NCBI GenBank assembly: GCA_030390025.1
Contig: CM059431.1
Span: 133,364,001-133,428,000, forward strand
From: Squalus acanthias
Taxonomy: Eukaryota
Length of the DNA stretch: 64,000 bases
Reading direction: 5' to 3'
Shown here: piece after piece, positions 9,592 to 54,798 of the stretch
Position numbering within the stretch: the first letter of the stretch is position 1
How the letters are laid out: each line of letters starts with the position of its first letter
Program-made: the position numbers and the translations under genes
Notes under the pieces: generated by a model
Databases searched by the model: none
What the model saw: only the letters and a program-made list of their open reading frames with translations
What the model was told of the DNA's origin: nothing

Positions 9592-9906
9592 TAGGAGGCC
9601 TAAAGAAATGGTGGGAATGTTTGTGGTAAAGGTCGAGGTTCGTGTGATTACATTTGTTTACTGTTTTGCCGTTTATCTCCATCTTGTGAGAACGAGTTCT
9701 GTTAGTTCATGATTTGTTGTGTTTGTTTCTAATTGTTTGTCCTGAATAAATGACACACACAGAGTTTGTTAAATAAAAAAGTTTTTGTATTCAAAATTTA
9801 CATTTTTGGTCTTTGGAATCATTCCAGCTTTGGCTGGCAATAGCGGTTGCGGGTTGCTTTCCATGATGTTGTTCTCCATGCCAGAAGCCATCTTCTCAGT
9901 AGGGGC

Positions 9907-22375: not shown

Positions 22376-24505
22376 AAGGATATTGAGGCCCTGGAAAAGG
22401 TGCAAAAAAGATTTACAAGGATAATAACAGAACCGAGAGTTTATAATTATCAGGAAAGACTGAACAGGCTAGGTCTCTTTTCACTAGAAAAGGTAAGGCT
22501 GAGTGGTGACCAAATAAAGGTTTTTAAATTATGAAGGGGTTTGATAGGGTAGACGTAGAAAAGATGTTTCCACTTGTGGGAAGTCCAAAACTAGGGACCA
22601 TGGGCTAGAAATTCGTTATAGCCAAGGAATGGGCAGTGCTTAGACTAAAAATGGTGAATTAACGCCAGGTGAAAATCATCCAGACTGCACAAAAAATTTG
22701 TCTTCACTCCTCAGTAAAATGATTGGAGCCATAAATCTAGTCTAAAAACCCAAGCTCATTGCCGTTACACTGAAAAGATGGTGTAGTCTAAACGCAAGAA
22801 ATGATTGCCACCGGCTTTTTTCACTGCATTAATGCTGCAGCACCTCATTCTCAGCGTTGTTGGCTGTGCAGCTGCCTCAACAACCATAAACAGCAGGACA
22901 AGGAGAAGGAGCACTTATTTACAAATCCTGATGGCAGATTGCCGCCCCAGGGAGAGAGCCCGCAGTTTTTCCCATGAAGCTTTGGAGGCATTGGTTTTAG
23001 TGGTGGAGAGAAGGTGACTGGTCCTGTACCCACCAACTGGTAGGAGGCACTCGCCAAAAGTCTGCCACACTATGTGGAGGGAGGTGGCACACCACATCAC
23101 GGACAGCACTGTGGTCCCCAGGAATAACTTTAACGGGCTCACATGGGTGGGCAGGGTGAGTGAAGGCTTCAACAAATGCTACATACCACCATCTGTACCA
23201 TAAGCTTCACACACTGCTCAATCTACCACTCCCCCAGCACTCACCCACCAACAATCTCTACCTATCACCACTCATACTCACATCTCACGCCTTGCACACA
23301 ATGACAGCTATTCAACTATGGCAGGCACAAGGGTCATTACTTATTAGAATGCATGTGATATGTGTGATATATTTATGCATAAATTTATTAATAGAGTTTG
23401 GAATATTTTGTGATCTCTCTCATTTCACCTTTGCACCCAGGAGGACGCTGTGATATGGCATGACACAGGGATGGTATGATGGGGATGTGGTGAGCAATGG
23501 GGATCTGGGGTTTCATCCATTCAAATCGGAGTCTGATGAGCTGGTCACGGATCGCCTATTCAGAAGCTTGATTGTCCGGCTGCCTCCTCCCTCCCTCCTG
23601 TTCCTCGACTTCTTCCTCCTCGTCTTCTTCCTCCCTCGTCCCTCTGTGCACATGTTCCCATCTTCCTCATTGCCTCCACTCCCTCCGCCATAGATCCTGG
23701 AGGGTGAGGTGGACTGCCAGTACAGCCCCCATGACTTTTAGCAAGTGTTGTAGGTTGAATCTTTCAAGAATAAATTTTGCACTTTTCTACTTGCCACAAC
23801 ACTCCTGATACCAAAAAACCTTCAAATCACTAAATAAAACTGTTGCAGTATCAGGAACTAACACACAGGCACTGAAACTTCACTAACCTGTCAGGTGCAT
23901 GTGATTGGGGCTGATCCCTTTAAATAATGTCCCTGCAGCCAGCTTCCTGGTGCTGCACACCAGGACAGTTCTCCCTGTCAGTGTTTACTCCAGGTGTAAG
24001 TGGTGAGAAGCAATTTGTCAGATCGGGCATTCAGTGAGTGTTGCACACTTACTGATGTCACGATCTTCCTGGTGTTGAAGTCCCCAGCGATCGCTGTTAC
24101 CGGCTTGCTACGGGAATCCCGATTTGGCGTGCAGCGCTGGATTCAACAGGAGCTGTCGTTACAGCTCTCAATTCCGCATTAAGGCCATCTACTGGCGCTA
24201 ACCGGCGGCGCTAAGGGGACAAATTTTCCCCCCATATATATAACATAGTCACTAATAAATGTAATAAGGAATTCAGGAGAAAATTCTTTACCCAGAGAGT
24301 GGTTAGAATGTGAAACTTGCTACCACATGGAGATGTTGAGAAACGTGGTATAGATGCATTTAAGGGGAAGCTAGATAAGTACATGAGGGAGAAAGGAAAG
24401 GAATAGAAGGGTATGCTGATAGGGATACATGAAGTAGGGTGGGAGGAGGCTCGTATGGAGCATAAACACTGGCATAGTCCAGTTGGACTGTTTCTGTGCT
24501 GTAAA
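22376..24505 (+). mobile_element. CR1 3' fragment split by a Harbinger derivative
   Basis: KDIEALEKVQKRFTR motif and a CR1 3' UTR; collinear across 22601/24236. Confidence 0.8.
22602..24232. mobile_element. Internally deleted Harbinger (family A-related)
   Basis: CAT TSD (22599-601, 24233-35). TIRs GGGCTAGAAATT / AAATTTTCCCCC. Myb remnant MADCRPRERARSFSHEALEALV on +; joined transposase termini on -. Confidence 0.82.
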
Positions 24506-27625: not shown

Positions 27626-30330
27626 ATGGCACAAGGGAGTATGGCAAGGCTGGATGGCATTTATTTTAATGCAAGGAGTCTTGCGAGTAAGGCAGATGAA
27701 TTGAAGGTGTTGATGAACACATGGGAGTATGATATTGTTGCTATCACAGAGACATGGCTGAGGAAGGGGCAGGACTGGCAGCTCAATATTCCGGGGTATA
27801 GAATCTTCAGGCGAGACAGAGGGGGGTGTAAAAGAGGAGGGGGTGTCGCAATATTAATCAAGGAGTCAATTACTGCAGTAAGGAGGGATGATATCTTAGC
27901 AGGTTCCTCTAATGAGGTCATATGGGTAGAACTTAAAAACAAAAAGGGGGCAAGCACTTTGCTGGGAGTGTACTATAGGCCCCCAAACAGTCAGGGGGAG
28001 ATAGAGGAACAGATATGTAGGCAAATCTCAGAGAAGTGTAGAAATAATAGGGTAATAATAGTAGGGGATTTCAACTTCCCCAATATTAACTGGGATAGTC
28101 AGAGTGTGAAAGGCTTAGAGGGTGCGGAATTCTTAAAGTGCATCCAGGAGAGCTTTTCTGAGCCAGCATGTAGAAAGTCCTACAAGAGAGGGGGTGGTAC
28201 TGGACCTAATTCTCGGGAATGTAGCCGGGCAAGTGGTAGAAGTGTCAGTAGGAGAGCATTTTGGTGACAGTGACCATAATTCGGTGAGATTTAAGGTAGT
28301 CATGGAAAAGGACAAAGATGGACTGGAAATAAAGGTTCTAAATTGGGGGAAGGCCAATTTTAATATGATAAGGCAGGATCTGGCCAAAGTGGACTGGGAT
28401 CACCTCAGAAAGGAAATAGAGAGAGTACAGCGCCAACATGTTTCCGTAAAGGTCAAGGGTGGGACCAACAAATCCAGGGAACCCTGGATGTCAAGGGATA
28501 TACAAGAATGGATTAGGAAAAAAAGGAAGGTTTTTGGCAGATACAAAGGACTAAAAACAGTGGAAGCCCTAGAGGAGTATAGAAAGTGCAGGGGGGTACT
28601 TAAAAAAGAAATTAGGAGAGCGAAGAGGGGGCATGAAAAAACACTGGCGGGCAAAATAAAGAAAAATCCCAAGATGTTTTATAAGTATATTAAGGGCAAG
28701 AAGATAACCAGGGAAAGAGTAGGGCCCATTAGGGACCAAAGTGGCAATCTGTGTGTCGAGCTGGAAGATGTGGGTGAGGTTTTAAATGAATATTTTGCAT
28801 CTGTGTTCACTTTGAAAAAGGACGATGTAGGCATAGAAATCAGGCAGGGGGATTGTGATATACTTGAAGAAAGTAGCATTGAGAGGGAGGAGGTACTAGC
28901 GGTTTTAGCGGGCTTAGAAGTGGATAAATCCCTAGGCCCAGATGATATGTATCCCAGGCTGCTGTGTGAGGCAAGGGAGGAGATTGCAGGGGCTCTGACA
29001 CAGATCCTCTCTGGGCACAGGGGAGGTGCCAGAGGACTGGAGGACAGCTAATGTAGTACCATTATTCAAGAAGGGTAGTAGGGATAAACCAGGGAATTAC
29101 AGGTCAGTGAGCCTAACATCAGTGGTAGGGAAATTATTGGAAAAAATTCTGAGGGACAGAATTAGTCTTCACTTGGAGAGGCAAGGATTAATCAAGGATA
29201 GTCAGCATGGCTTTGTCAGGGGGAGATCATGTCTAACCAATTTGATTGAATTTTCCGAGGGGGTGACTAGGTGTGTGGATGAGGGTAGTGCAGTTGATGT
29301 AGTCTACATGGACTTCAGTAAGGCTTTTGACAAAGTCCCGCATGGGAGACTGGTCAAGAAGGTAAGAGCCCATGGGATCCAGGGCAATTTGGCACATTGG
29401 ATCCAAAATTAGCTTAGTGGCAGGAGGCAGAGGGTGATGGTCGAAGGTTGTTTTTGTGACTGGAAGCTTGTGTCCAGTGGTGTACTGCAGGGATCGGTGC
29501 TGGGTCCCTTGCTGTTTGTAGTGTACATTAATGATTTAGATATGAATGTAGGAGGTATGATCAGTAAGTTCGCAGATGACACAAAAATTGGTGGAGTGGT
29601 AAATAGCGAGGAGGGAAGCCTCAGGCTACAGGACGATATAGACGGGTTGGTCAGATGGGCAGAACAGTAGCAAATGGAATTTAACCCTGAAAAGTGTGAG
29701 GTGATGCATTTTGGGAGGACTAACAAGGCAAGGGAATACACAATGAATGTAGGACCCTAAGAAGGACAGAGGATCAGAGGGACCTTGGTGTGCATGTACA
29801 TAGATCCCTGAAGGCAGCAGGATAGGTAGATAAGGTGGTTAAAAAGGCATATGGGATACTTGCCTTCATTAGCCGAGGCATAGAATATAAGAGCTGTACA
29901 AAACACTAGTTAGGCCACAGCTGGAATACTGTGTGCAGTTCTGGTCGTCACACTATAGGAAGGATATGATTGCATTGGAGAGGGTGCAGAGGAGATTCAC
30001 CAGGATGTTACCTGGGCTGCAGCGTTTCAGCTATGAAGAGAGACTGGACAGGCTGGGGTTGTTTTTCTTCGAGCAGAGAAGGCTGAGGGGGGACCTGATT
30101 GAGGTGTACAAAATTATGAGGGGCATAGATAGGGTAGATAGAAAGGAACTTTTCCCCTTAGTAGAGGGGTCAATAACCAGGTGGCATAGTTTCAAGGTAA
30201 GGGGCAGGAGGTTTAGAGGGGATTTGAGGAAAAACTTTCACCCAGAGGGTGGTTGGAATCTGGAACTCACTGCCTGAAAGGGTGGTAGAGGCAGGAACCC
30301 TCACAACATTCAAGAACCATTTAGATGAGC
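27626..30330 (+). pseudogene. CR1 ORF2 (APE endonuclease plus reverse transcriptase), several frameshifts and stops
   Basis: NARS, ITETWL, YRPP, GDFNFP, SDH, DFSKAFDKVPH, QGSVLGP and FADDTK motifs across consecutive ORFs. Confidence 0.92.
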
Positions 30331-30458
30331 ACTTGAAACACCATAGCATACATGGCTATGGACCAAGTGCTGGAAAATGGGATTAGAATAGACAGGGCTT
30401 GATGGCTGGCGCAGACACGATGGGCCGAAGGGCCTCTTTCTGTGCTGTATAACTCTAT

Positions 30459-31189
30459 GGGGGAAAAATTCAGCTGCTTGCGCCTCCCGTTAGCGCCTTA
30501 AGAGGGCGCTAATGGGGCGTAAAGCAGCTAACGCCCGGGCGCAGCGCCGCCCACGCCTCCCGAAAAATTTAGCGGGAGGCTAGCGGCGGCGGCAGCCGGT
30601 AGCGCCCTGTGGCGCTGCGCCGCCGGCGATGACGTCATCGCCGTGCGCAGCACCCCGCTTGCGCCCCGGCCGTGATCTTCAGTCGCGCCCCCTGATTTAC
30701 CGCCAGACGCTATGTCCGACGGGTTCAGGGAGGCGTACGTGCGGCCGGGGCGGCGATATTTAAAGCGGAGGTGGCAGGCGGCCATTTTTGTTGCTGGCCG
30801 CCTGCCAGCACCTGCCCCCGGCCCCCGTGAAGCCCCCCCACCGTGAAGTGCCGGCTGCGCTCCAAGAGCCCGGCACTTCTCTTGAGTGCCGGGCTCTTTT
30901 GCCGGCACTCCCGATCCCTGGGGGCCCAGCTGGGCCCCGGTTCGCGCTGCGCAGGGTCCCTCCCCTTTAAGAAGGGGAGGAAGGCCTGCAATACCGCGGC
31001 ACGTAGCGCCAGGATATTCACTCGCAGCGCCCCAAGATGGATGCGGGCTGCTTCCAGTTGCGCCCCGCTTCCCTCTTGGGGCGCAACCACTGAAGTTCTG
31101 GCGCGGGGCCGCTAATTTTTTCGGGGCGCTAAAAGTCGCGCCCCGGCGAGGTTAGCGCCCCAAATGGGGCGCGACTCAATTTTTACCCC
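30459..31189. mobile_element. Harbinger family A MITE (731 bp, GC/CpG-rich)
   Basis: TIRs GGGGGAAAAATT / AATTTTTACCCC; TAT TSD (30456-58, 31190-92). Ends homologous to 31201-35544. Confidence 0.92.
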
Positions 31190-31372
31190 TATGACTCTAT
31201 GGGGTAAAAATTCAGTTGGTTGCGCCTCCCGTTAGCGCCTTAAATGGGCGCTAATGGGGCGTTAAGGCGCTAACGCCCGGGCGCAGCGCTGTTTGCGCCG
31301 CTCGAGAACTTAACTTGAGATTGTGCGGCGGCGCTAAAACTTACCGCTGCGACCACCTGCGCGCGCAGATTG

Positions 31373-31517
31373 TGACGTCATTCCGTGGTGCAACGCCCTT
31401 GGGGCGCCCCGGAGCGGAAATTGAGTGGCGCCCCCTGCCTTACCGCCTGGCGCTTCCAACGACCGGAAGACTGGAACGTTATCAATCGGTGTGGGGCTGG
31501 GGGGGGCGCTATTTAAA
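31373..31517 (+). promoter_or_regulatory. Putative transposase promoter (TGACGTCA and TATTTAAA)
   Basis: TGACGTCA at 31373-80 and TATTTAAA at 31510-17, ~200 bp before ATG 31715. The same pair occurs at 30630/30757 and 11349/11224. Function is inferred. Confidence 0.45.
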
Positions 31518-31714
31518 GGGGGCCTCTTCCTGTCTTTTTCTGTGGTCGACATTTATGCACCACTCGTTCTGAGAGAGAGAGAGAGATTCGGAGAGAGAGA
31601 GAGAGAGAGACTTCTACATTGACGCAACGCTTTGTGAGGTAGTTTTGCCTAGTTCATCCTAACTTTGCTGCTACTTTCGTTGCTGTACCTCATTACTTTT
31701 CTGCCAAAGAGAAT

Positions 31715-32875
31715 ATGGGGGCTGCAATGATTGGGGGCGTCGTCCTGCTCCAGCTCAATCGGAGGAGAGTGAGACGCAGACAGAGAGTGGCAATGATGGC
31801 CAGACGGAGGAGGGCCATCAGGCGCATGTACAGGAGAGCTTACCCTCCCAGGGTATATCGTGAACAGCTCTCCTACATCCACATGTCCGAGGAGCTGTGT
31901 TTGCGAAGGCTGCGATTCAGCAAGGAGGTGGTCACTGAGCTCTGCCACCTGCTGCAGCCAGATCTGCAGCCTCAGCTGAGGTCCAGGACGTCTCTGTCGG
32001 TGGCAGTGAAGGTCACAGTGGCTTTGAACTTCTACGCCACTGGCTCATTCCAAGCTGCTGTTGGGGACCTCGCCAATATCTCCCAGTTTGCGGTGCATCG
32101 CTGCATCCGGCAGGTCACCAATGCCCTCTTCACAAGGAGACGAGACTTCATCTCCTTCCCTATGACCCCAGACAAGCAGCATGACCGTGCTATGGGCTTT
32201 GCGAGGGTAGCGGGCTTCCCCATGGTGCAGGGCGCCATTGACTGCACGCATGTGGCTTTGCGTGCTCCGCGAGAGAATGCAGAGGAGTTCCGGAACAGAA
32301 AGGGGTTCCATTCCTTGAATGTGCAGTTGGTCTGTGACCACAGACAGGTGATACTCGCTGTCAATGCCCACTATCCGGGCAGCTGCCACGATGCTTTCAT
32401 CCTGCGCCAGAGTACTGTGGCAGAAATTTTCGAGGCACCGCATCAGCCAGTTGGTTGGCTTCTGGGGGACAAGGGGTACGCATTGAGCACCTGGCTGATG
32501 ACACCGCTCCGTGCGCCAAACACCCCTGCTGAGCTGCGGTACCAGGAAAGCCAACAAGCAACCAGGAACATTATTGAGCGCACAATCGGCGTGCTCAAAC
32601 AACGATTCCGCTGTCTGGACCATTCCGGAGGAGCCCTGCAGTACTCGCCTGAGCAAGTTTCCAAATTCGTAGTGGTGTGCTGCATGTTGCACAACATGGC
32701 AATCCTCAGGACGCAGCCAATGCCACCAGGCCTTGCAGCACCACAAGAGGAGGAGGAGGAAGAGGAGGAACAGGCCGAGGACGATGATCAGCAGCAGCAC
32801 CAAGGCAGGAGGGCGGCCCACAATGGTCAAACTGCAAGGGCCGTCCGTCAACGACTAATAGCAAGCCGCTTCTAG
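31715..32875 (+). CDS. Harbinger (HARBI1-like) DDE transposase, 386 aa, intact
   Basis: ATG to TAG uninterrupted; GAIDCTH, HDA, LLGDKGY and IIERTIGVLKQRFRCL motifs. Confidence 0.95.
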   Translation: MGAAMIGGVVLLQLNRRRVRRRQRVAMMARRRRAIRRMYRRAYPPRVYREQLSYIHMSEELCLRRLRFSKEVVTELCHLLQPDLQPQLRSRTSLSVAVKVTVALNFYATGSFQAAVGDLANISQFAVHRCIRQVTNALFTRRRDFISFPMTPDKQHDRAMGFARVAGFPMVQGAIDCTHVALRAPRENAEEFRNRKGFHSLNVQLVCDHRQVILAVNAHYPGSCHDAFILRQSTVAEIFEAPHQPVGWLLGDKGYALSTWLMTPLRAPNTPAELRYQESQQATRNIIERTIGVLKQRFRCLDHSGGALQYSPEQVSKFVVVCCMLHNMAILRTQPMPPGLAAPQEEEEEEEEQAEDDDQQQHQGRRAAHNGQTARAVRQRLIASRF

Positions 32876-33169
32876 GGCCCCTGCCAGTGCTACAAACACG
32901 AATCAACCCAGCACGCAACCCCTAAGCCGGCCAAGGCACCAATAATTCCAACCACCAGCCATGTATATTTTGAATACAGAAACTTATTTATTGTACAAAC
33001 TCTGTGTGTGTCAATTCCTCATGACAAACTCATAGAAATAAACACAAAAAAACAGTCAATAACATAACTGGTTCTCACAACCTGGAGATAATGTCCAAAA
33101 CACTAAACAAAAGTTGGGCCCTGAACCTCGGCCTTTAATAAAAAAATGACCAGCATTTTGGCACACCTC

Positions 33170-35187
33170 CTACTTTTTGCCCTTCGAGGGTGATCTCCTT
33201 CCCTTGCGCACTTCCCCCCTTCTAACCCTACTGCTCCTCCGTAATGGGACCTCAGTGGCTGCAGCAAGGCTGGTGGAAGGCTGCTGCTTGTCAGACCCTG
33301 ACACTGCAGATGCCCCTGAAGGACGGCCTCGACCACTTCTGGGCCTGGAGGGCCCGGCTGCAGACTGCACCAACTCTGCATGGGCGGCAGCAGTCTGTCC
33401 TACAGGCGGTGGCAAGTGCAGTGGAGAAGTGACAGTGTTGGCAGCAGGAATGCTGTCATCGTGAGAGAGGACAGCAACTCCCTGCTCGCCCGACACACTG
33501 GCACTCCCACGGGGCAGCACTTCAGCATCCGGAGCAATTTGCCGGAGAACAGATTGCTGGCCTGCTGCGGCGCGGTGACAGCCCCGGGGACATGTGCACG
33601 AACCATCGAGGATGGCAGCAGTCAGTGCTCGCGTGGCCTCAATCTGAGTCTGCATGAGAGCAGTCTCAGATGGGTTCCTGGCAGCCAGTGACTGAATTGC
33701 AGCAGTAAGCTTTAGTGTGGCATCCGCCTGTGCTACAGCGAAGTGCTCCACACTCCTTGCCAGTGCCTCAATGCATTCGGGCACCCTTCCCACTGCACCC
33801 ATGAGCTCAGTGTGCATGCCCACCGCCTGGCTGTTCATTTCTGCAATCAGCCGCTCCTCCTCTGCGTCCATTGCATTAGGAGTGTCTGGCATACTCTCCC
33901 TCTGGGGAGAAGGCTCCCGTTCTTCCCTCCCCCCCCCATGGCGTTGCTGCAGCCCGCTGGGTCCTGGAACTTCACCATCATCAGCCCCTTCCCCCCTGCT
34001 CCCCCGTTCTTCCCTCCCCCCCCAATGGCGTTGCTGCAGCCCGCTGGGTCCTGGAACTTCACCATCATCAGCCCCTTCCCCCCTGCTCCCCTCCGGGGAA
34101 GGCGTGTTCCCAGTGTGGCCATGGGCTTCCTCGGGAGAGGGTGGCACTGATGCTCCGGCTTCCTCTTCCTCCTCAGCTGCAGCATCACTCCCAGTGGCAG
34201 CTTCAGGGACCATCTCCTCAGCTGGTGAATCACCATCTGAAAGCAGGGAGGTACAAGAGTGGCTTTAGCGTGAGGACAGGGTGGCAGTAAGGGAGGAATA
34301 AGTGCAGCGAGTTAGCAAGTTGGATTGAAAGTGTCAAAGGCTGGTATTGTGAGGGACAAGTGGAAGGACAGAGGACAAAAAGGTGATGACCTTACCATTG
34401 CTGTCCACAACGGGGTCGGCGTCTCCAGTGGCGACGGGACCGATCACCCGGCTTGCCACAATCCTGTGGACGCGCTCCTCCAGATCGCTGAGGGGTTGCA
34501 GCTGAAGCCGCCCTCCACCCGTCCGTTGCTGCTGTCTCCGATTATGAGCCAGCTTAGCCTGCAAGAAAAAGGACAGCATCTGAGTCAATATACAGCCATG
34601 GTCTTGCCTGATGTGCCTCCCATAGGTGAATAGCCCTTACAATATGCAGCCATGGTCTTGCCTGATGTGCCTCCCATAGGTGAATAGCCCTTACTGTATG
34701 CAGCCATGGTCTTGCCTGATGTGCCTCCCATAGGTGAATAGCCCTTACTGTATGCAGCCATGGTCTTGCCTGATGTGCCTCCCATAGGTGAATAGCCCTT
34801 ACTGTATGCAAAGTGTGGAATGTGTGTGTGTGTTTGATGAAAGGGCCATAGGTGTTGCATGAGTGTTGTGCATTGGGGTTTTAAGACCCTCTGGCCATAG
34901 AGTGAGGTTGAGATGGAGGGATGGAGAGGTATTGAGAAAAAGCCACTCACCCTGACGACCCGAGTGAGGTCGTTGAACTTTTTGCGGCACTGGACATGGG
35001 TCCTGGGCACCATGCTCCTGGAGGAGACGCTCTGAGCCACCTCCCTCCACACTCTTCTGAACTCGCGTGGCAAAGGCCTCCTGCCACTCTCCGGGAACAG
35101 CATGCATCGTCTGCGCTCCACTGCGTCAACCAGAGCATCCAAGGCCCGCTCGGTGAAGCGATGAGCGCGTTCTCTCACCCTCTCCAT
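33170..35187 (-). CDS. Harbinger Myb/SANT-like DNA-binding partner, 3 exons (35187-34951, 34558-34396, 34236-33170), predicted 488 aa
   Basis: GTGAGT and GTAAG donors with polypyrimidine-CAG acceptors; phases 0 and 1 join into one 1467-nt open frame. RFTERALDALV..WREVA..RTHVQCRKKFNDL, then RTGGG and a coiled-coil-like region. Confidence 0.88.
34593..34810. repeat. 54-bp tandem repeat x4 in intron 1 of the Myb gene
   Basis: Unit GCAGCCATGGTCTTGCCTGATGTGCCTCCCATAGGTGAATAGCCCTTACTGTAT. Confidence 0.92.
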
Positions 35188-38100
35188 GCTTGGCAGCAAA
35201 ATGGATTACAGGTCTCTCCAGGCTGAGATTCAAGGCTGCAATGAGCAGGGTGTGGCTGGGGAGCAAGTGGCCCCCCCCGCTTTAAGAAGTGTCCGGCGCC
35301 AGTGTGTCTGTGTTCCCTCGCTAACTGGCAGCAGCTGCGCTGCGCTCGTGCGCTGAGGTAGCGCCTCACTCCTAGGCCTTTGCGCCTTAAGAGAGGTGTG
35401 CAGCGCCTAATTTAGCGCTCCACTCACCTCCCGGGGCGGTAAAAGTGAAGTTTCCTGTCAGTGCCGATAATTAGCGCCAGGCGCTAATATTTGCGCGCGG
35501 ACGATATTTGCGCCCCAAATGGGGCGCGACCTAATTTCTACCCCTATGACTCTAGACTCTAAGGTGGTGGATGGGGTGCCAATCAAACGGGCTGCTTTGT
35601 CCTGGATGGTGTCGAGCTTCTTGAGTGTTGTTGGAGCTGCACTCATCCAGGCAAGTGGAGAGTATTCCATCACACTCCTGACTTGTGCCTTGTACATGGT
35701 GGAAAGGCTTTGGGGAGTCAGGAGGTGAGACACTCGCCGTAGAATACCTAGCCTCTGACCTGCTCTTGTTGCTACTGTATTTATGTGACTGGTCCAATTA
35801 AGTTTCTGGTCAATGGTGACCCCCCAGGATGTTGATGGTGGGGGATTCGGTGATGGTAATGCCATTGAATGTCAAGGGGAGGTGGTTAGACTCTCGCTTG
35901 TTGGAGATAGTCATTGCCTGGCACTTGTGTGGCGCAAATGTTACCTGCCACTTATCAGCCCAAGCCTGAATGTTGTCCAGATCTTGTTGAATGCGGGCAT
36001 GGACTGCTTCATTATCTGAGGAGTTGCAAATGGCGCTGAACACTATGCTGTCATCAGCTAGTAACTTGTAGCAAGGAAGAGCTACCCCGTGAATTGCGGA
36101 GTGCCATAAGTCGATTTGCACTGCTCCGCCGTCACCGTTAATTTCATGAAGTTGCTGCACTTGCAGATTAGTTGTCCATTAAACTTGTCCCAGAAAGTTA
36201 AGGCTGGTAATTAACAGGGTAAATACCTTTTTAACGATGTGATAATTGTTAATGATTGCCAATCAACCTCTCTTGCCTCTTTTGCCCAGAAAGTGAGCAA
36301 TTATAAGTGTGGAGTCTCATTCCTTCAGGTTGTGAATTGTTTTTGGAGATTTCATCTTTCTTAATGCAATCTTTCTTTCCCTCTCTTTGGGAGCGATTTT
36401 AACCCTACTCGCTCAGCAGAAACCTGGCGGGTGGTCAAAAAGCCTGTCCATTTAACAATGTGGTAACTGTTAATTACTGCCAGTCAACCTCTCAGGCACT
36501 GAAAATGAACTATTACAAGTGCGGAGTCTCATTCCTTCAGGTTTTAACTGTTGTTGGAGATTTTAAAAATGTAACATTTGAAATTAAAAAAAACTTTTTC
36601 TTACTTTTCCTTCCTGTCTTTTTTCCTCTCTCTCTCTCTTAATCCAATCTTTCTTTCCCTCTGTTTATTTTTCTTTCTGTACCTGATTTGACATTGAATT
36701 CACCCACTCTAATTTACACTTCCTTCTCAGTCCTTGCGCTGTTAATTTCACAATCCTCCAATCTGATTGTTTAAAGAGATACACAGTTGCTTTCCCTGTT
36801 CACTCAGGTCCCAGATGCCCTGCTACGATGTACTTTCAGCAACTTGCCACACCAAAAATTTAAAAAGCTAAACGTGCAAGGGAAGTCTCACTAATGGCAG
36901 ATGCCGTTAGATGCCCTGCTATGGCAAATTATGGCCCATTGAATTCACCCACTCTAATTGACCCTTCTTCTCAGTATTCCTCTGTTTATTTCTCAATCCT
37001 TTAATCTCATTGGTTAAGGAGATACTCTGTTTGTTTCATTGTTCACCAAGGTCCCAGATTCCCTGTTGCCCTCACTGCGCCGTTATTAGCTCGCACTTCT
37101 AGCAACTTTGTGGGTAAAAAATGTTAAAACCTAAACATGCACAAACAAGTCTAACAGGGCACGACGCGAGATCCCCACTCCAGCAAAATCTGGCCCAATA
37201 CTGTATTACCACAAAAGTTTGACATTCTATTTGAAACACTGGATTTGATCAATGCATGCGTATTGTTGCAGTTGAACTCATCCATGTCAGTGGCTCCTGA
37301 CTGTTGAGTGCTTCTGTGTCTCAGATTCTCTTGGCTCACGTTGGCACAAAGTAGCACTGGTGGAAGTTACAGAACAGAAAATATGGTTGTTTAAAGGGAA
37401 ATTATTAAGGGGAGGATGAGATAATGAGAATTTACTGCTCTTATCTTTAACTTATGTCTTGCGACTACCAGTGGATCAAGGTTGATGCACAATATTTGTA
37501 GTTTAGCCAATACGTCCAGCAATGATTATGTTCTGAATAAACAAGGAGTTAAGGCTACTTACAGGAGGGCTATCACAGTAATGTTAGGTCACATATTGTG
37601 ATCTTTACAACGCCACCTGCATGTGCAACACCCATTGTATGTTGCGACCACTTTTAATAGTATATAGATAAATTTTTTAAAAGACATGTCAATCGCTATG
37701 GTGATTCTGCACAGCTCTGTACTGACTGGTCTCTTGCTAATGTGAGCACTATATATCTTCATTCAAGTGTGATATATTGGGCTTGCAGCTTTTTTTCTAT
37801 GCTATGATTTCGGTATTTAAAACATAGATTGTTGCCCTGTAATCAACAACTAGAATCAACTAATGCTGCATGACTAAAAAAAAGTTTAGATTGTCTCCAT
37901 TCATACGTTGAGAATCAATTCAGCTGTTCTGAGATAAATCATTTTTCATATCTTGTGGATAACCAGGAAACAAGCAAAAATAAACCAAAATCCCCAATCC
38001 AGATACTGTGGAGCTGAACATTCACCCTGTGTATATTTGCATAATTTATCGGATATAACATGCAACAAAAGAGTTCTTTATTTTGCTTAGCAAATTCTGA

Positions 38101-38809: not shown

Positions 38810-40022
38810 ATGGGAACCATTTATTTCCTTTCCTCCTGGACCTCAGATTTGGACGAAGACCAGCCGCGGCAGCAGCAGAACCTGGAACAACAGCAGCACC
38901 AACAGCAGGAGCAATAACAGGAACGCCAACCTGCTGCTCCCCCACCTGAAGCTGCACAGGCCAGAAGGTGCCAGCGCAGTGAAGGACATCGCCGCAGGAG
39001 ATACCCCCAAAACACGGTTTACAGACAGAGGATGAGCTACCTCAACATGACTGAGCAGCAGTGCCAAAGGAGGCCCAGACTTTCGCGAGAGGTAGTGGGT
39101 GACATCTGCGCAATGCTGCAGCAAGACCTGGAGCCCAGTGGAGCGGGTGGACACCCCTTACCAGTGGCCGTCAAAGTCACCACCGCACTCAACTTTTTTG
39201 CTTCAGGCTCATTCCAGGGATCAACAGCAGACATTAGCGGCATCTCCCAGGCGGCCGCACACAATTGCATCATGCAGGTAACCGATGCCCTCTTTGCCAA
39301 CGCGTACAATTACTTCAACTTCTCCAAGGATCAAGCAAGTGCAACAGCGCATGCGGTTGGATTTGCTAATCTGGCAGGCTTTCCAAGGGTGCAGGGCGTC
39401 GTAGACTGCACACATTAAGGCACCCCATCACAATCCAAGGGCTTCCACTCCCTTAACTTACAGCTAGTGTGTAACCACAATAAGGAAATTTTACATGTTT
39501 GCGCCAAGTACCCTGGCAGTTGCCATGACTCCTTCATCCTGCGGCAGTCTAGTGTTCCTCCATTCTTCAGTCTGCCAGACCAACTTTGCGGATGGCTACT
39601 TGGAGACAAGGGCTATCCCCTGAAGACGTGGCTAATGACACCATTGAGGAGGCCCATCCAACAAAGCTGAGGAGCGCTACAACTCCAGCCACATTTCCAC
39701 CAGATCCATTATCGAGCCAACCATCGGCTTGCTGAAGATGCGTCTCAGATGCCTTGATAGATCAGGTGGAGCCCTGCAGTACTCAGCAGTCAGGGTCTCC
39801 AGAATCGTCATGGTCTGCTGTGCACTTCACAACATGGCACAGCATCGTGGCTTGCAGCTGCCTGAGGTACAAGTGGCTCATCGCATAGCCTCCTCAGATG
39901 AGGAGGAGGAGGAGAGTGACAACAAACAGCTTGTGGAGGCGCATCAACCAGCGGCAGCAGCACGCGAGAACATTGCTGCCCGGGATGCAAGGGGGGCACT
40001 GATCTTGGCCAGATTTGCTTAG
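38810..40022 (+). pseudogene. Harbinger transposase, frameshifted
   Basis: Fragments [33 protein letters not shown] and LKMRLRCLDRSGG are split across separate ORFs. Confidence 0.9.
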
Positions 40023-40280: not shown

Positions 40281-42273
40281 CTACGTGTGCATTATCTTCC
40301 TCTTATGCGTGCTCCTACGTGGTGCTTCCCCTGTGGCTTCAGCAGATGTGGAGGCCCGTTGCTCACTTTCATGCTGCTCCTGCCTCGACACCTTTGGCGG
40401 GCGTCCTCTGGGGTTGCGAGCCTGTGAGGGCTCGCCAACAGTCTGCAGCTCCTGCAGCTGTGCAGTGGCTGAGACGCCGATCTCAGTTGGGTGGGGACTC
40501 TGGTGGGGCTCTGACCGAGGGCTTTGCAGTGGCATGGCTGTGTGAGCGCTTGGAGAGGAGCCCCCACTTCCTTGTTCTCTGCCACCAACATCCCTCTCAT
40601 GGGTCAGCCCCACTTCAGAGCTAGCAAGTGCCTTAACAGCACCTTGCTGCACTTCAGGGGGGCCATGAGGACCTGTTTCTGCACTGGCAGTCCTACTCCA
40701 GAGGACTTCCATGAAGGTCGGGTTTCTCTGCTCAATAGCTGACCATCGCTCCTCCAGAGATGTCAATCTATTCTGAACAATGACCATGCTTTCAAGACCC
40801 TGGCGACTTAGCTCCTCCATGGCCATCGCCATCCTCTCCTCTACCGTAGCCATCCTCTCCTCTACGGTAGCCATCCTTACCATGGAGTTAGCCATCCTTT
40901 GCACGGAGGTTGCCATCCTTTTCATTCATGCGCCAATGCCTCCACAAAGGCTCTGCTCATGTTAGCGATGGACTCCTCCATCCGCTCCACACTTGCAGCG
41001 ACCCTGGAGACAAAACCTGCCAGAGACTCCTGCACCTGTTCCTGGAGTTCCAGCACCGCTCTCCACCTGGATGGACCTGGAGGCATAGGGTCGACATGCA
41101 GCTGAGCCGAGCTGGGAGGGTCCTGCACCCTCCGACGAGGACTCTCCACTGCTGTCCCTATCTCCACCATCTGCTGATGCTCACTTGTGAGCTGTGATAC
41201 ACCAGGTGACAACACTACTCTGTGTTCCGAAGGTCCCAGGTGTGAGTGTCTGCGCTGGTGCTGGGTGCGCTGAATTCTGCTGACGCTACGCCCTCAGAGG
41301 TTGCAGCTTCCTCTGAGGAGTCTTGAAGCTCAGGCTGTTCCTCCTGGACAGTGGGGAGGGGGGCTGTCGATGGTCCTGTGGGGGAGTAAAGGAAAGAGTT
41401 AGACATGTGAGGTAAAGGTTGCATGCACATTGAATTGTGCAGATGATCATAAGTCAATCTGTTAGAGCATTAGAATCAAGATCAGTCACTCATGCAATGT
41501 CAATGAGAGAGATGAAAAACTATTCTGTCACCAGCTTGCTCTGATGTGCCCGTCTGTCTGTCCCCCACTTGCGCATCCTCCTCGACTCCCATGACCTCCA
41601 GGGCTGCCTCCTCTGCACTGGTGAGCTGGGCTATTGAGGGTGGTCATCCTCCTGTCTTCGCCCTTTCCCTCTTATTGTGGGCTCTCTTTTCCTGCAATGA
41701 TGGACTCAAGTGGAGTTTGAGTGAGAATGAAGCAGTGAGTGTAGAGAATCCTTAGCATCGATGCTTAGAAGGACACAAAGATGGAGTGAGGTCCCAAGAC
41801 CAAGGCCCTCCCTATGTGTTGTAAGTTGTTGTCATAGCATAACAGTGATAGGGAGTGTCAGGGCTGCATAGTCGAATAGTTACGTGAATGTGAACATACA
41901 GAGAGAGGGAATGGTTAAGGGTGCAGGGATGTAAGGGTCAAGTGGGATGTGGAGGAGGAGGTTGACGATGAAGAGTGCTGGTGATGAGAGGCGATGGGGA
42001 GCAGATTGAGAGTCATGGTGATGTAATACTCACTTTGCCTGTGCGGAGAAGATCATGAAACCTCTTTCTGCACTGCAGCCATGTTCTGCTGCACATTGAG
42101 ATGGCACTGACCTCCTGTGCCACTTGCAGCCACACAGCTTTGGTCTGCTGGGGAGGTTTTTTCCTCCCAGAAGAAGGAAACAGCACTTCCTTATGAGCTC
42201 TTGCTCCCTCCTCCAGAGCTTGGAGGGAGTCCTCATCAAAGCGGGCTGCGCACTTGGGTCTTGAGCTTGCCAT
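40281..42273 (-). pseudogene. Harbinger Myb/SANT partner gene, 3 exons (42273-42034, 41691-41532, 41375-40281), with stops
   Basis: Exon 1 ARFDEDSLQAL..WLQVAQEV..RTWLQCRKRFHDL|GTGAGT; exon 2 EKRAHNKRERAKTGG*; exon 3 heptad-rich. Confidence 0.82.
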
Positions 42274-48857: not shown

Positions 48858-51112
48858 GGCTGTGAAATTCAGCTCTGTAGCGCCCGGTTTTTCGGCACTA
48901 TGGGTGCCATTTTGTGTCCATAATGGCGTCTGAGCAGCGCACGCACACTTCTGGTGTGGGCCACGCTAGATGCCATTTTGGCGGGGGCGTTAGTGTCGGC
49001 GCCGGAAGTATGCAGAGTAGGCAGATCGTGAAGGTCAATCAGCACGTAACGCTGATTTGACGCCAGCGCTGCCATTTTTGACCTCGGCGATGGAGCTAAT
49101 GCCTTCTCTTAACCTCGCATAGCTGAACATGAGTTAAGCAGCAGGAAGGACCCCCTCCAGCACTATTTAAAGAGATCATTAACAACTTAAAGGTTAGTTG
49201 CTGTTTGATTTCTCCTAGCTGTTGCTGAGTTTGCAGAAGAGTTTGGTGCGTTCTAGAGTTCTTTAAAGTTGCCTAAAGTCTACAGGGAGTGGTGTGGCAT
49301 GTGCTCAAGGACTTGGTACTGACTTGCAAGGCTTCTGCTCAGACCAGTTGCTCCCAGGCATGGGTGCAGCAGTTTGTATCACCCTTGGCCTGCAGCATGA
49401 TAGGGAGAATGAGCAGAGGTGACACAGAGCAGGACAAGCTGCCAGAATAGGGAGGAGGAGGAAGAGAAGGGCTCTCAGCAGGAGGCCATATCCACCCAGG
49501 GTTTTCAGGGAGAAATTCTCCTACCTCAACCTCAGCAAGCAACAGGGTGTATGACGTCTCCGCTTCACTAAGGAGGTGCTCACCGAAATCTGCCACCTGT
49601 TGAAGGCAAAACTGCAGCCTCAGAGCAGGGTGAGGACCACATTGCCAGTGGCTGTCAAGGTTATGGTGGCCATGAACTTTTATGCTTCGGGCTCCTTCCA
49701 AGCTGGAGCAGGCGATATTTGCAACATCTCCCAGTTCGCTGTCCACTGCTGTATAAGGGAGGTCACTGAGGCACTGTATGCAAAGAGAGTTGAATACATT
49801 TCATTCTCTCTTGCTAGAGAGAAGCAGGTGGAGCGAGCACGCGGCTTTGTGAGGATTGCAGGCTTCCCCATGGTGCAGGTTGCATTTGACTGCACACACG
49901 CCGCTTTGCGGGCGCCGCATGTCAATTCGGAGATGTACCGCAACCAGAAGGGATTCCATTCCTTCAATGTTCAGCTGGTGTGCAACCATACGTAACGCAT
50001 CATGCAGGTCAATGTTTGGTATCCAGGCAGCAGTCATGATGCCTTCATTCTGCGATAGTCTGCTGTACTATCAGTCTTTGAACCAACACAACAAACCAGA
50101 GGGTGGCTACTGGGTGATAAGGGCTATCTGCTGACGACCTGGCTCATGACTCCAATGCGCAAACTAAGCATGTATGGCCAAAATGCATATAACAAAAGCC
50201 ATGCTGCCACACGGAATGTGATCAAGCAGACCATTGGTGTGCTTAAACAATGCTTCTGCTGCCTGGACCGCTCTGGAGGAGCCCTGCAGTACTCACCAAG
50301 TCTCAAGAATTGTTGTGGTCTGCTGCATGCTCCACAACCTCAAAATCATGAGGAACCAGCCCTTGCCACCAGGCATATGGTGACTAGCTGAGGAAGATGA
50401 AGAGGAGGAGGAGAAGGAGGAAGAGGAGGAGGAGGAAGGAAGGAGGCAACCCAGACAGTTCCTTTTTGCCGTGGCTGTCTGTGATCGACTCATCCAACTG
50501 CGGTACCAGTGAACGCAACCCCAATTCCCCCATTCACCAATAGTCCTACACCTTACCTTCCCTATCATACTCACAATCACAGCGCCTCGTGGCCACAATG
50601 CTACAATAAAAGCCACCACAAAACAAATATTCCAAACCAAATTTATAAATCAAGCCATTCCAATATTTAATTCAAAAGTCAACTCATCACCCTTGTGCTT
50701 TCCCTTAGTGCCTGCCTTCCGTGTGCCTTTGCCTATCCTAGTGCTCCTACACAGTGCTACCCCAGTGACTGCATTATGGCTGGTGAAAGGCTGCTGACTT
50801 TCAGTGGGGGAGACTGCAGATGGCCTTGGAGAATGACCTCAAGCAGCTCTGGGCCTAGTAGGCTCGGCTTCGGATTGCACCACCTTGGCATGGGTGGCAG
50901 CAGTCTGGGCTGGCTGGCTGATAGGCAACAGCAAAGGCACTGGCAGAGTGAGGGGACGAATGCTTTCATCCTGAGAGAGGAGAGCAGGTTCGTGCTTAAC
51001 GGAGCCACTGCCACTCCCCCCGGGGCGGCGCCTTAGCAATCCTAGTAATCTGTTGGAGAACAGATTGCTGGAATGCTGTGGCACCCTGCAAGCCCATTTC
51101 AACACTGGTAAC
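48858..51112. mobile_element. Decayed Harbinger (third subfamily), right part replaced by CR1
   Basis: Left end GGCTGTGAAATTC; transposase remnant on + and partner C-terminal remnant on - (~50690-51105). Confidence 0.75.
49360..50512 (+). pseudogene. Harbinger transposase with multiple stops
   Basis: VAVKVMVAMNFYASGSFQ, AFDCTH, LLGDKGY and IGVLKQCFCCLDRSGGALQY motifs; acidic tail. Confidence 0.88.
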
Positions 51113-51993
51113 CCAGTCAGTTTAACCTCGGTAGTGGGGAAGCTTTAGAAACGATAATCCGAGACAAAATTAACAGTTACTTGGACAAGTATGGATTAAT
51201 TAAGGAAAGCCAGCACAGATTTGTTAAAGGCAAATCATGTTTAACTAACTTGATTGAGTTTTTTGATGAGGTAACAGAGAGGGTTGATGAGGGTAATGTG
51301 GTTGATGTGGTGTACAGGGACTTCCAAAAGGCGTTCGACAAGGTGCCACATAATAGGCTTGCCAGCAAAGTTGAAGACCATGGAATAAAAGGGACAGTGG
51401 CAGCATGGATACGAAATTGGCTAAGTGACAGGAAACAGAGAGTAGTGGTGAATGGTTGTTTATCGGGCTGGAGGAAGGTACACAGTGGTGTTCCCCCAGA
51501 GGTCGGTACTAGGACCACTGCTTTTCTTGATATATATTAATGACTTAGACTTGGGAGTACAGGGCACAATTTCAAAATTTGCAGATGACACAAAACTTGG
51601 AAGTATAGTCAACAGTGAGGAGAATAGTGATAGGGGGAGAAATTCGGTATCGCCCCGTTTGGGGCGCAATTATTGGCCGGGCGCAAAGTTTAGCGCCTGG
51701 CGCTAATTATCGCCTCCGACTGCAAACTTGGCTTTTATCGCCCCTGGAGGTGATTGGAGCGCTAAATCAGGCGCTGCACACCTGTCTTAAGGTGCAAAGG
51801 CCGAGGAGCGAGGCGCTAACTCAGAGTGCTGGCGAAGCTCAGGTGATATCAGTTAGCGATGGAACACAGACACACTGGCGCCGGACAGTTCTTAAAGGGG
51901 AGGGTCGATCTTGCACTCCAGCCACACCCTGCTCATTGGAGTCTTGAATCTCGGCCTGGAGAGACCTGTGCCTAAATTTTCCAGCCAAGGACC

Positions 51994-53790: not shown

Positions 53791-54798
53791 AGATACATAG
53801 ATACATATAGAACAGTACAGCACAGTACAGGCCCTTTGGCCCTCGATGTTGTGCCGAGCATTGTCCGAGACCAAGATCAAGCTATCACACTCCCTATCCA
53901 GAGGCTCTGCAATCTCCTCCCTTGCCTCCCAAAGAATCCTAGGATATATCCCATCTGGCCCAGGGGACTTATCGACCCTCAGGTTCTTCAAAATTGCTAA
54001 AACATCTTCCCTCAGAACATCTACCACCTCCAGCCTATCCACCTTTATCACACTCTCATCCTCAAGAACATGGCCCCTCTCCTCGGTGAACACTGACGAA
54101 AAGTATTCATTCATCACCTCTCCTATCTCTTCTGACTCCATGCACAAGTTCCCACTACTGTCCTTGACCGGCCCTACCCTCACCCTGGTCATTCTTTTAT
54201 TTCTCACATAAGAGTAAAAAGCCTTGGGGTTTTTCTTGATCCGACCCGCCAAGGACTTCTCATGCCCCCTCCTAGCTCTCCTAAGCTCTTTTTTTAGCTC
54301 ATTCCTTGCTACCTTGTACCCCTCAATCGACCCAACTGAACCTTGTTTTCTCATCCTTACATACGCTTCCTTTTTCCTCTTGACTAGACATTCAACCTCT
54401 TTTGTGAACCATGGTTCTCTCACTCGGCCATTTCCTCCCTGCCTGACAGGGACATACCTATCAAGGACACGCAGTAATTGCTCCATGAAAAAGCTCCACT
54501 TTTCGTTTGTGCCTTTCCCTGATAGTTTCTGTTTCCATCTTATACTCCCTAATTCTTGCCTAATCGCATCATAATTACCCCTCCCCCAATTATAAACCCT
54601 GCCCTGCCGTATGGCCCTATCCCTCTCCATTGCAATAGTGAAAGTTACCGAATTGTGGTCACTATCTCCAAAGTGCTCTCCCACATACAAATCAAACACT
54701 TGGCCCGGTTCATTGCCCAGTACCAAATCCAACGTGGCCCCACCTCTTGTCGGCCTATCCACATATTGTGTCAGGAAACCCTCCTGCACACACTGTGT
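53791..54798 (-). mobile_element. Internally deleted CR1 (post-endonuclease linker joined directly to the 3' UTR/tail)
   Basis: PTRGGATLDLVL..SDH..KSPGPDGIYPRIL, then a jump at ~53895 to the 3' UTR and (TATGTATC)n tail; GGTT on both flanks. Confidence 0.82.

What the first reader, a model, noticed from the sequence alone, without database searches (positions are those of the whole stretch)
31201..35544. Complete, potentially active two-component Harbinger transposon
Seen: 11/12-matching TIRs, an exact TAT TSD, a 386-aa transposase with its D/D/E motifs, and a convergent partner gene whose three predicted exons splice into one open 488-aa frame. CpGs are largely retained at the ends. The other family-A copies (7480, 12514, 51633) are broken, and two MITEs share its ends. 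Known: Harbingers need both a DDE nuclease and a Myb-like protein, and the experimentally studied zebrafish Harbinger3_DR was reconstructed from a consensus. Inference: a natural candidate source element able to mobilise the local MITEs, and a possible genetic tool.
Basis: partly seen in the sequence, partly recalled or inferred. Interest (0 to 1): 0.75.

Follow-up and report, generated by a model that had tools for sequence, protein, structure and literature searches.

The report
Intact copy of abundant shark Harbinger
This is a real, structurally complete two-gene "cut-and-paste" Harbinger transposon from a shark or ray, but it is one copy of a very abundant family of a known kind, and nothing shows that this copy is the active source.

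Summary
The anatomy is confirmed: 4,344 bp, 11/12 TIRs, TAT target duplication, a 386-aa DDE transposase, and a convergent three-exon Myb/SANT gene that splices to 488 aa. The intron-2 junction appears in two RNA-guess runs and not in two DNA runs. Intron 1 rests on conserved splice sites only.

The 'source element' reading is weak. The family is very high-copy (104,074 contigs of one DNA run laid at 90% or more; thousands of copies by inference), so chance alone leaves many intact copies. The RNA-guess contigs carry other letters at 17 and 26 of 30 listed sites. Dead neighbours have equally CpG-rich ends, and the 731-bp MITE is only 72-73% like its ends.

The transposase has Q277/Q280 where homologues have N (82 of 89) and H (77 of 89), on the catalytic-E helix. 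The two genes seem to have different ancestry. Element and MITE sit in successive units of a LINE tail that spells a Harbinger3_DR-like target.

Intact natural vertebrate Harbingers are already known (sea krait: 269 copies). Verdict: new member of a known kind.

The parts
31201..35544 (+). Full-length two-gene Harbinger (PIF/Harbinger, Nuwa-like) DNA transposon, 4,344 bp
31198..31200 (+). Left target site duplication TAT
35545..35547 (+). Right target site duplication TAT
31201..31212 (+). Left TIR (12 bp, begins GGG)
35533..35544 (-). Right TIR (11 of 12 match to left)
31233..31511 (.). Left subterminal array, five TAGCGCC motifs on both strands; candidate Myb-protein binding sites (inferred)
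   Evidence: 5 left, 3 right, 0 in the interior, 1 in 43,014 bp of background
35359..35486 (.). Right subterminal array, three TAGCGCC motifs, at the same spacing as in copy 51633
31510..31517 (+). TATA-like box upstream of the transposase; also in both sibling copies and in the MITE (30757)
31715..32875 (+). Transposase ORF, 386 aa; D176, D252, E288 (D-35-E) plus D226; atypical Q277 and Q280
34951..35187 (-). Myb/SANT partner exon 1 (trihelix DNA-binding domain)
   Evidence: PF13873 E 1e-9
34559..34950 (-). Intron 1 (GT..AG), holding four copies of a 54-bp unit at 34589-34804 (two copies in the siblings); junction not among the RNA joints shown
34396..34558 (-). Partner exon 2 (163 nt)
   Evidence: same exon 1-2 sequence pattern in annotated protein P0006
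34237..34395 (-). Intron 2 (159 nt), removed in RNA-guess contigs of two studies
   Evidence: table 5
33170..34236 (-). Partner exon 3: acidic low-complexity part with an in-frame 87-bp tandem duplication (33916-34089) absent from both siblings, a predicted helical middle part and a basic C-terminal tail
   Evidence: no Pfam family and no protein homologue
32987..33142 (.). Convergent poly(A)-like signals (+ strand 33037, 33137; - strand 32987, 33134); the two 3' UTRs would overlap
30459..31189 (+). 731-bp MITE with the same TIR type and its own TAT duplication, 11 bp from the element
30451..30458 (+). First unit of the tandem tail of a LINE (CR1-type; label recalled) that hosts both insertions; the tail continues at 31190-31200 and 35545-35559
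35560..36000 (-). Second, older LINE interrupted by the tail-bearing LINE (family label recalled)
   Evidence: RT-end-like frame 35458-35871; loose end at 35560 in 4 of 4 runs

Best explanation
One passively inserted, still intact copy of a very abundant and relatively young Harbinger family in a cartilaginous fish. The family works like zebrafish Harbinger3_DR. Shown here: two convergent genes with open frames, family transcripts with intron 2 removed, 3-bp duplication, and insertion at A-N-N-Y-[3 bp]-R-N-N-T sites. Inferred from Harbinger3_DR: the Myb/SANT protein binds the subterminal repeats (here probably the TAGCGCC arrays), binds the transposase and brings it into the nucleus, and the D176/D252/E288 centre cuts at the TIRs and joins them to a staggered 3-bp target. 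The copy is intact because it has aged little and because among thousands of copies some escape damage, not because it is a master element. It landed beside the MITE because each unit of the LINE tail spells the preferred target. Whether its own proteins still work is open.
For: Anatomy and domains. Abundance: 104,074 contigs of run X1 laid on 30200-36000 at 90% or more, 17,880 at 99% or more (flanking LINEs included); at 32665 depth 117,592 for the other letter against 35 for this copy's letter; 12 of 24 listed runs hold half or more of the stretch's words. Closeness to other copies: five long X10 contigs differ at 30 of 2,084 bases, 98.6%. Chance survival of both frames is 0.26-0.62 at 0.5% and 0.07-0.40 at 1% divergence. 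Splicing: joint 34236/34396 with CT..AC ends in X14 (depth 336, 3 contigs) and X18 (52, 1 contig), 0 in X1 and X10. Transcribed contigs differ from this copy at 17 (X14) and 26 (X18) of 30 listed sites at share 0.99 or more. Purifying selection between lineages. Target motif 17 of 20 positions at 5 independent sites, p 2e-5; 13 of 16 outside the tail, p 3e-4 to 5e-4.
Against: Summed contig depth is not a copy number, and only about 55% of X1 was read. The 30 sites are the best supported of 251 listed differences, chosen for being different, and contigs drop rare variants, so expression of this copy is not excluded. Organism A need not be the window's species. The splice joint has only 24 letters on its shorter side and RNA is a guess for both runs. 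Intron 1 removal was not among the 15 joints shown (218 hidden), and X14 and X18 contigs read through its donor (34845-35091, 34837-34989). Exon 3 has dN/dS 0.91-0.96, so its protein sequence is not shown to be constrained. X10 matches the transposase gene at 454 of 456 bases (31782-32237), which fits a very young subfamily.
Confidence: 0.78

Rival explanations
1. One reading: this copy, or its immediate subfamily, is transposition-competent today and mobilises local MITEs in trans.
For: Both frames, both ends and all splice sites are intact; family transcripts are spliced at intron 2 in two studies; near-identical contigs exist (17,880 at 99% or more in X1; 454 of 456 in X10); the only near-fixed private coding change listed, K317, lies at a variable column; MITE 30459 carries six TAGCGCC motifs and matching TIRs.
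Against: Transcribed contigs carry other alleles; Q277/Q280 replace N and H conserved in 82 and 77 of 89 homologues and in all 5 other transposase relics of the window; MITE ends are 27% diverged; no empty-site joint was among the 15 joints shown; at the epaulette-shark rate of 7e-10 per generation (PMC10587355, passages) even two or three private changes in 4.3 kb mean several hundred thousand to a million generations (crude, other species).
Confidence: 0.2
2. Structurally complete but catalytically crippled: Q277/Q280 on the helix that carries R284 and E288 disable or weaken the transposase, and this subfamily spread as a hitch-hiker on other transposases.
For: N277 is one of 24 nearly invariant columns of the 73-sequence alignment; no homologue has Q there (0 of 89); residues 277, 280/281, 284 and 288 lie in one helix, H271-297, at i+3/i+4 spacing.
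Against: The N-to-Q change needs two base changes and lies among synonymous differences, which fits lineage-level change rather than decay; these positions are not among the 40 best-supported differences from other copies (211 hidden); the transposase keeps dN/dS 0.24-0.26 against both siblings and 126 of 131 conserved columns; Q is a chemically mild replacement.
Confidence: 0.25
3. A domesticated host gene pair (HARBI1/NAIF1-like) rather than a mobile element.
For: Best homologues are annotated 'putative nuclease HARBI1'; spliced transcripts exist.
Against: TIRs, an exact target duplication, insertion into a LINE tail, three 74-82% identical siblings in 64 kb and very high copy depth. The HARBI1 name is an automatic label on many transposon copies.
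Confidence: 0.02
4. The family homes specifically to the tandem tail of CR1-type LINEs, as a safe-haven strategy.
For: Two insertions 11 bp apart in successive tail units; one X10 contig (30272-30493) bridges the tail/MITE junction with 35 bases on the MITE side in a run that otherwise looks like trace DNA.
Against: The other five bounded elements of the window are not in such tails; loose ends at the MITE's right end show other flanks in X14 and X18; the tail unit is simply a 4-of-4 match to the general target motif.
Confidence: 0.08

Closest known systems
Harbinger3_DR of zebrafish (reconstructed; Sinzelle et al. 2008, not read; known through passages of PMC3016246, PMC9392472 and PMC9710019)
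   Same: DDE transposase plus Myb-like partner, subterminal repeated motif, 3-bp duplication. Its target AAACAC-CWG-GTCTTT has A at -4, C at -1, G at +1 and T at +4, the four positions favoured here.
   Different: Duplication here is TAT/ATA at 4 of 7 sites (CAT at 1, TGA/TCA at 1, unmatched at 1), not CWG; the repeated motif differs; this copy is natural, not a consensus; activity untested.
Harbinger-Snek of sea kraits (PMC8437027, passages)
   Same: Natural, very high-copy vertebrate Harbinger with intact two-gene copies (269 in L. colubrina, 1 in L. laticaudata with RNA reads over both genes) and short non-autonomous derivatives.
   Different: Snek arrived by horizontal transfer; here the closest proteins are all from sharks and rays (the first 64 of 120 listed hits), which fits long residence in cartilaginous fish.
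NuwaI / NuwaII groups of the PHIS superfamily (PMC4482050, passages, section 4 part 1 and section 8)
   Same: TIRs starting GG(G), two ORFs (DDE and Myb/SANT), about 4.4-4.7 kb, D-D-E placed as strand / strand-helix / helix; a C before and a G after the triplet as in NuwaII C|TNA|G.
   Different: Triplet TAT fits none of the group definitions (TWA, CWG, TNA, ANT); only MITE 19580 has a C|TNA|G-like site. No tree with Nuwa reference transposases was built.
Expanded, expressed Harbingers of the newt Pleurodeles waltl, coelacanth and medaka (PMC5741667, PMC9179366; passages)
   Same: Large Harbinger expansion in a vertebrate genome with both genes transcribed; rare recombination between transposase and Myb lineages was noted in fish.
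   Different: PMC9179366 found no Harbinger in elephant shark and asked for other cartilaginous fish to be examined; this genome has them in abundance.
Unnamed shark and ray proteins annotated 'putative nuclease HARBI1'
   Same: 365 hits at E 1e-20 or better; best 65% (Pristiophorus japonicus), 54-60% in Mobula, Narcine, Heptranchias and Carcharodon.
   Different: None is this family (65% at best); the label refers to the domesticated gene but these are mostly transposon copies (inference).

Membership tests
PIF/Harbinger superfamily (broad sense, PHIS) | DDE_Tnp_4-type transposase with D, D, E triad | tested here: met
   PF13359 E 5e-38; D176, D252, E288; model pLDDT 90 with D176 in a strand and E288 in a helix
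PIF/Harbinger superfamily (broad sense, PHIS) | Second gene for a Myb/SANT DNA-binding protein | tested here: met
   PF13873 E 1e-9, PF13837 E 1e-6; 488-aa spliced frame
PIF/Harbinger superfamily (broad sense, PHIS) | Short TIRs beginning with G and a 3-bp target duplication | tested here: met
PIF/Harbinger superfamily (broad sense, PHIS) | Dispersed multi-copy family with non-autonomous derivatives | tested here: met
PIF/Harbinger group in the strict sense of Han et al. 2015 | TSD 5'-TWA-3' | tested here: not met
   TAT here; 0 of 7 bounded elements in the window have TWA on both sides; one X18 loose end at the MITE begins TAA
NuwaI (holds the CWG families) | TSD 5'-CWG-3' | tested here: not met
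   0 of 7 sites
NuwaII | Target C|TNA|G | tested here: inconclusive
   Flanks are C and G here but the triplet is TAT; MITE 19580 has C-T(G/C)A-G
NuwaI / NuwaII | Placement in the Nuwa transposase clade | not tested
   No named Nuwa or Repbase reference sequences were at hand
Autonomous, active Harbinger (Harbinger3_DR type) | Both genes expressed and correctly spliced from this copy | tested here: inconclusive
   Family transcripts splice intron 2; intron 1 joint not shown; contig alleles differ from this copy
Autonomous, active Harbinger (Harbinger3_DR type) | Conserved N..H..R...E catalytic helix | tested here: not met
   Q277 and Q280; R284, E288 and K295 kept. A conserved feature of homologues, not a published requirement
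Autonomous, active Harbinger (Harbinger3_DR type) | Myb protein binds subterminal motifs and the transposase; excision and integration occur | not testable with these tools
   Needs binding and transposition assays
Domesticated HARBI1/NAIF1/MSANTD genes | Single copy, no TIRs or TSD, conserved synteny | tested here: not met
   TIRs, TSD and high copy depth; synteny not testable

The most novel reading that the evidence does not exclude
A recombinant Harbinger subfamily that is still mobile in a living shark or ray: its transposase comes from one lineage and its Myb gene from another, it carries a rewired catalytic helix (YQxxQ instead of YNxxH) and still transposes, and it inserts at a palindromic A-N-N-Y-TAT-R-N-N-T target that LINE tails supply in tandem. 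It would be a natural, unreconstructed vertebrate two-component transposase with a target triplet outside the TWA/CWG/TNA scheme, and the first shown to be active in cartilaginous fish.
Probability: 0.15. Interest if true: 0.6.

Novelty: new member of a known kind. Interest (0 to 1): 0.3.

Why it matters
If only the best explanation holds, the value is modest but real. It documents a massive, transcribed Harbinger expansion in a cartilaginous fish, a lineage in which one survey found none (elephant shark) and called for more species (PMC9179366). It also gives a gene structure, candidate binding motif and target motif ready for an assay. If the subfamily is still mobile, it would offer a natural vertebrate Harbinger for mechanism and tool work, which matters because no close solved structure was found and the only vertebrate Harbinger reported active in the papers read is a reconstruction. 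The Q277/Q280 variant would then show which catalytic-helix residues are dispensable.

Tried and rejected
No whole genome is held for this window, so copy counts, flank logos and orthologous sites could not be computed. Run search: no RNA holder listed on record; the RNA labels of X14 and X18 are guesses. No empty-site joint (30458 or 31200 to 35545) and no intron 1 joint were among the 15 of 233 joints shown; this is not absence. Several organism codes hold half the words; horizontal transfer was considered and dropped, because X10, the one such run laid, has depth 12-136 over element, MITE and both LINE flanks alike (one bin 1.6), as trace DNA of a cartilaginous fish would. Complex prediction of transposase 1-335 with partner residues 249-369: no verdict, score 0.02 against a mark of 0.34, alignment not used. 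Exon 3: no Pfam family, no homologue among 8,000 scored candidates. Exon 1 search for longer proteins gave 1 hit of 158 candidates. PDB by sequence: 2 chance hits; by fold: no match at E 0.001, weak hits to DDE transposases and integrases. The first survival simulation had a frame error, and its numbers are discarded; one search replaces it. CpG retention as an age marker was rejected. Homing to LINE tails was lowered after the motif test. Earlier-findings look-ups by sequence, by words and nearby gave nothing. bioRxiv 10.1101/2025.06.08.657570 on shark and ray genomes has no mention of Harbinger or PIF in its main text; its supplements could not be seen and may list repeat classes.


Full report
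OBSERVATION. Positions 31201-35544 (4,344 bp) are bounded by 12-bp inverted repeats that match at 11 bases, with TAT on both sides. The plus strand holds a 386-aa frame (31715-32875) matching DDE_Tnp_4 at E 5e-38; D176, D226, D252 and E288 are present and the start agrees with the MG(A/V) start of full-length homologues. An AlphaFold2 model from a 73-sequence alignment (73 of the 120 listed hits plus the query counted as one row) has mean pLDDT 90, with D176 in a strand and E288 in helix 271-297. The minus strand holds three exons of 237, 163 and 1,067 nt that give 488 aa and one stop; exon 1 is a Myb/SANT domain (PF13873, E 1e-9). The three sibling copies (7480, 12514, 51633) are broken as stated.

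HOST AND RELATIVES. The protein search gave 365 hits at E 1e-20 or better, 120 listed; the first 64 are from sharks and rays, best 65% identity. The host is therefore most likely a cartilaginous fish; I did not determine the species, and no whole genome is held. Seven bounded Harbinger-derived elements fill 20,975 of the 64,000 bases, and further transposase and Myb relics lie at about 2,400, 39,000, 42,100 and 49,500-51,100.

SPLICING. All four splice sites are conserved in copies 7480 and 51633. An independently annotated shark protein, P0006, runs from the Myb domain into the same exon-2 pattern. Retaining either intron or skipping exon 2 gives a stop by aa 154-209. Of 4 runs laid (of 24 listed), the two guessed to be RNA, from two studies and two organism codes, join 34236 to 34396 with CT..AC ends (X14 depth 336 in 3 contigs; X18 depth 52 in 1); the two DNA runs show 0. 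Limits: 24 letters on the short side, likeness threshold 90, X1 read to about 55%. The intron 1 joint was not among the 15 joints shown (218 hidden), and contigs of X14 and X18 read through its donor. So intron 2 is shown for the family, and intron 1 is inferred.

ABUNDANCE AND AGE. X1 laid 104,074 contigs on 30200-36000 (17,880 at 99% or more, 38,381 at 95-99%, 47,813 at 90-95%; flanking LINEs included), with summed depth 2e5 to 1.2e6 across the element. The tool warns that this is no copy number. At 32665, depth is 117,592 for the other letter and 35 for this copy's letter, so thousands of copies is my inference. Five long X10 contigs differ from this copy at 30 of 2,084 bases, from 2 of 456 in the transposase to 12 of 474 at Myb exon 1. 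At 0.5-1% divergence both frames survive by chance in 7-62% of copies, by the indel rate assumed; at 2%, in 0.5-16%. An intact copy is thus expected many times over. Unchecked notes on the same genome describe another complete 4,397-bp copy and a near-intact 4,255-bp copy. At least two sites look private (32665, K317 at a variable column; 33121, non-coding). At the epaulette-shark rate of 7e-10 per base per generation (PMC10587355, passages) two or three changes in 4.3 kb already mean several hundred thousand to a million generations; this is crude and from another species.

IS THIS COPY THE SOURCE? Four results weigh against it. (1) At 17 of 30 listed element sites X14 shows another letter at share 0.99 or more, and X18 at 26 of 30, including sites where this copy's letter is the majority in X1 DNA (33543, 33548, 34064). 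These 30 come from the 40 best supported of 251 differences, so they are selected, and contigs drop rare variants. (2) End CpG o/e is 1.13/0.89 here but 1.08/0.79, 1.01/0.65 and 0.91/0.87 in the dead copies. (3) The 731-bp MITE is 73% and 72% identical to the ends, and MITE 19580 is closer to the 12514 copy. Cross-mobilisation stays possible, since MITE 30459 has matching TIRs and six TAGCGCC motifs. (4) The transposase matches 126 of 131 conserved columns, but has Q277 where 82 of 89 homologues have N (none has Q) and Q280 where 77 of 89 have H (3 have Q) (the 89 are hits of 280 aa or more out of 120). All five other transposase relics in the window have N and H. Both residues lie in the helix with R284 and E288. 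For a lineage trait rather than decay: N-to-Q needs two base changes, sits among synonymous differences, and is not among the 40 differences shown. Its effect is untested.

SELECTION AND MOSAIC. Against the two siblings dN/dS is 0.24-0.26 in the transposase core and 0.28-0.29 in Myb exon 1, but 0.91-0.96 in exon 3. The lineage therefore needed both domains while it diverged; exon 3 sequence is weakly constrained, has no Pfam family and no protein hit. Divergence is uneven: sites private to this copy are 132 of 1,147 in the transposase but 93 of 1,444 from exon 3 to intron 1, while copy 7480 shows the reverse (64 and 134; chi-square p 3.5e-7). Quartets group the two siblings in the transposase (25:7:1 with one outgroup, only 22:17:1 with the other) and group this copy with 51633 in Myb exon 1 (13:5:1, 11:3:0, 8:2:2) and exon 3 (11:1:2, 4:2:2). 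A module swap between sublineages is the simplest reading; three copies cannot say which one is the recombinant. Rare recombination of this kind was suggested for fish Harbingers (PMC9179366, passages).

TARGET. The MITE and the element lie 11 bp apart in successive units of the tandem tail of a LINE (CR1-type by my recall; not tested against a library), which itself interrupts an older LINE at 35560. Tested here, 17 of 20 positions match at five independent sites (element and MITE counted once; 12514 left out for unmatched flanks; p 2e-5), 19 of 24 with 12514 (p 4e-5), and 13 of 16 outside the tail (p 3e-4 to 5e-4). The tail unit is a 4-of-4 match, which explains the pair without homing. The same four positions are in the Harbinger3_DR target AAACAC-CWG-GTCTTT (PMC3016246, passages). 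The triplet differs: TAT/ATA at 4 of 7 sites, outside the TWA, CWG and TNA definitions of PMC4482050.

MECHANISM. Shown: two open genes, family transcripts with intron 2 removed, a 3-bp duplication, a target motif, and a TAGCGCC motif confined to the ends (5 left, 3 right, 0 inside, 1 in 43 kb of background). Inferred from Harbinger3_DR as summarised in PMC9392472 and PMC9710019 (passages; Sinzelle et al. 2008 itself not read): the Myb protein binds the subterminal motif, binds the transposase N-terminus and imports it into the nucleus; the D176/D252/E288 centre excises and integrates. That TAGCGCC is the binding site, and that the basic C-terminal tail is the import signal, are my inferences.

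COMPARISON AND NOVELTY. It works like Harbinger3_DR and belongs to PIF/Harbinger in the broad sense, near the Nuwa groups by ends and size; it fails the strict TSD definition of each subgroup. Natural intact vertebrate copies are known: 269 in one sea krait and one with RNA over both genes in another (PMC8437027, passages); expansions and expression are reported in newt, coelacanth and medaka (PMC5741667, PMC9179366, passages). Han et al. list 88, 11 and 22 'potential active' families by the same two-ORF criterion. Seven searches (listings only, apart from the papers named) showed no title describing a shark or ray Harbinger family, and PMC9179366 found none in elephant shark; the library lacks most subscription papers, and repeat databases could not be searched. 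Plant Pong is already used as a tool (PMC11254759, listing only).

VERDICT. Observation confirmed; interpretation partly supported. An ordinary intact member of a large, transcribed shark or ray Harbinger family, with three details worth keeping: the altered catalytic helix, the mosaic ancestry and the TAT target within a Harbinger3_DR-like palindrome. Interest 0.3; new member of a known kind. About 0.15 that the subfamily is mobile today with these features, which would deserve 0.6.

Noticed in passing
window 30451-35559: MITE and element occupy successive TAT triplets of one LINE tail, so the outer ends (30459 and 35544) with TAT on both sides could act as a 5.1-kb composite element.
   Followed up: partly
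window 30272-30493: One contig of run X10, which looks like trace DNA, bridges the LINE-tail/MITE junction; such a junction may recur at many loci.
   Followed up: partly
window 33916-34089: In-frame 87-bp tandem duplication in Myb exon 3 (one mismatch), absent from both siblings.
   Followed up: partly
window 34589-34804: 54-bp unit in four copies in intron 1, two copies in the siblings; the unit has no CpG.
   Followed up: partly
window 32987-33142: Convergent poly(A)-like signals imply overlapping 3' UTRs, a possible source of double-stranded RNA.
   Followed up: no
window 34237-34395 and 34559-34950: The Myb introns are more alike between this copy and 51633 (91% and 94%) than the transposase gene is (85%).
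   Followed up: partly
window 22602-24232: 1,631-bp non-autonomous Harbinger with an exact CAT duplication and a Myb exon 1 relic (22949-23176).
   Followed up: partly
window 7480-11529: Sibling copy has lost 27 bp at its right end between two C runs, removing the TIR but keeping the TAT duplication.
   Followed up: partly
window 55881-57354 and 53791-54798: Two insertions (about 1.5 kb and 1.0 kb) inside the 51633 copy; not identified.
   Followed up: no
window 38993-39863, 49489-51118, 42043-42249, 2419-2583: Relics of more distant Harbinger families (transposase 54-59% identical; Myb 48-49%).
   Followed up: partly
window 30815: MITE contigs of X10 and X18 carry 12 extra bases here that this MITE copy lacks; otherwise the X10 contig differs at 4 of about 408 bases, so the MITE family is also young.
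   Followed up: no
P0006: A shark database protein fuses Myb exons 1-2 to a transposase; probably a gene-model artefact, not checked.
   Followed up: no
window 1349-1848: Assembly gap of 500 N.
   Followed up: no
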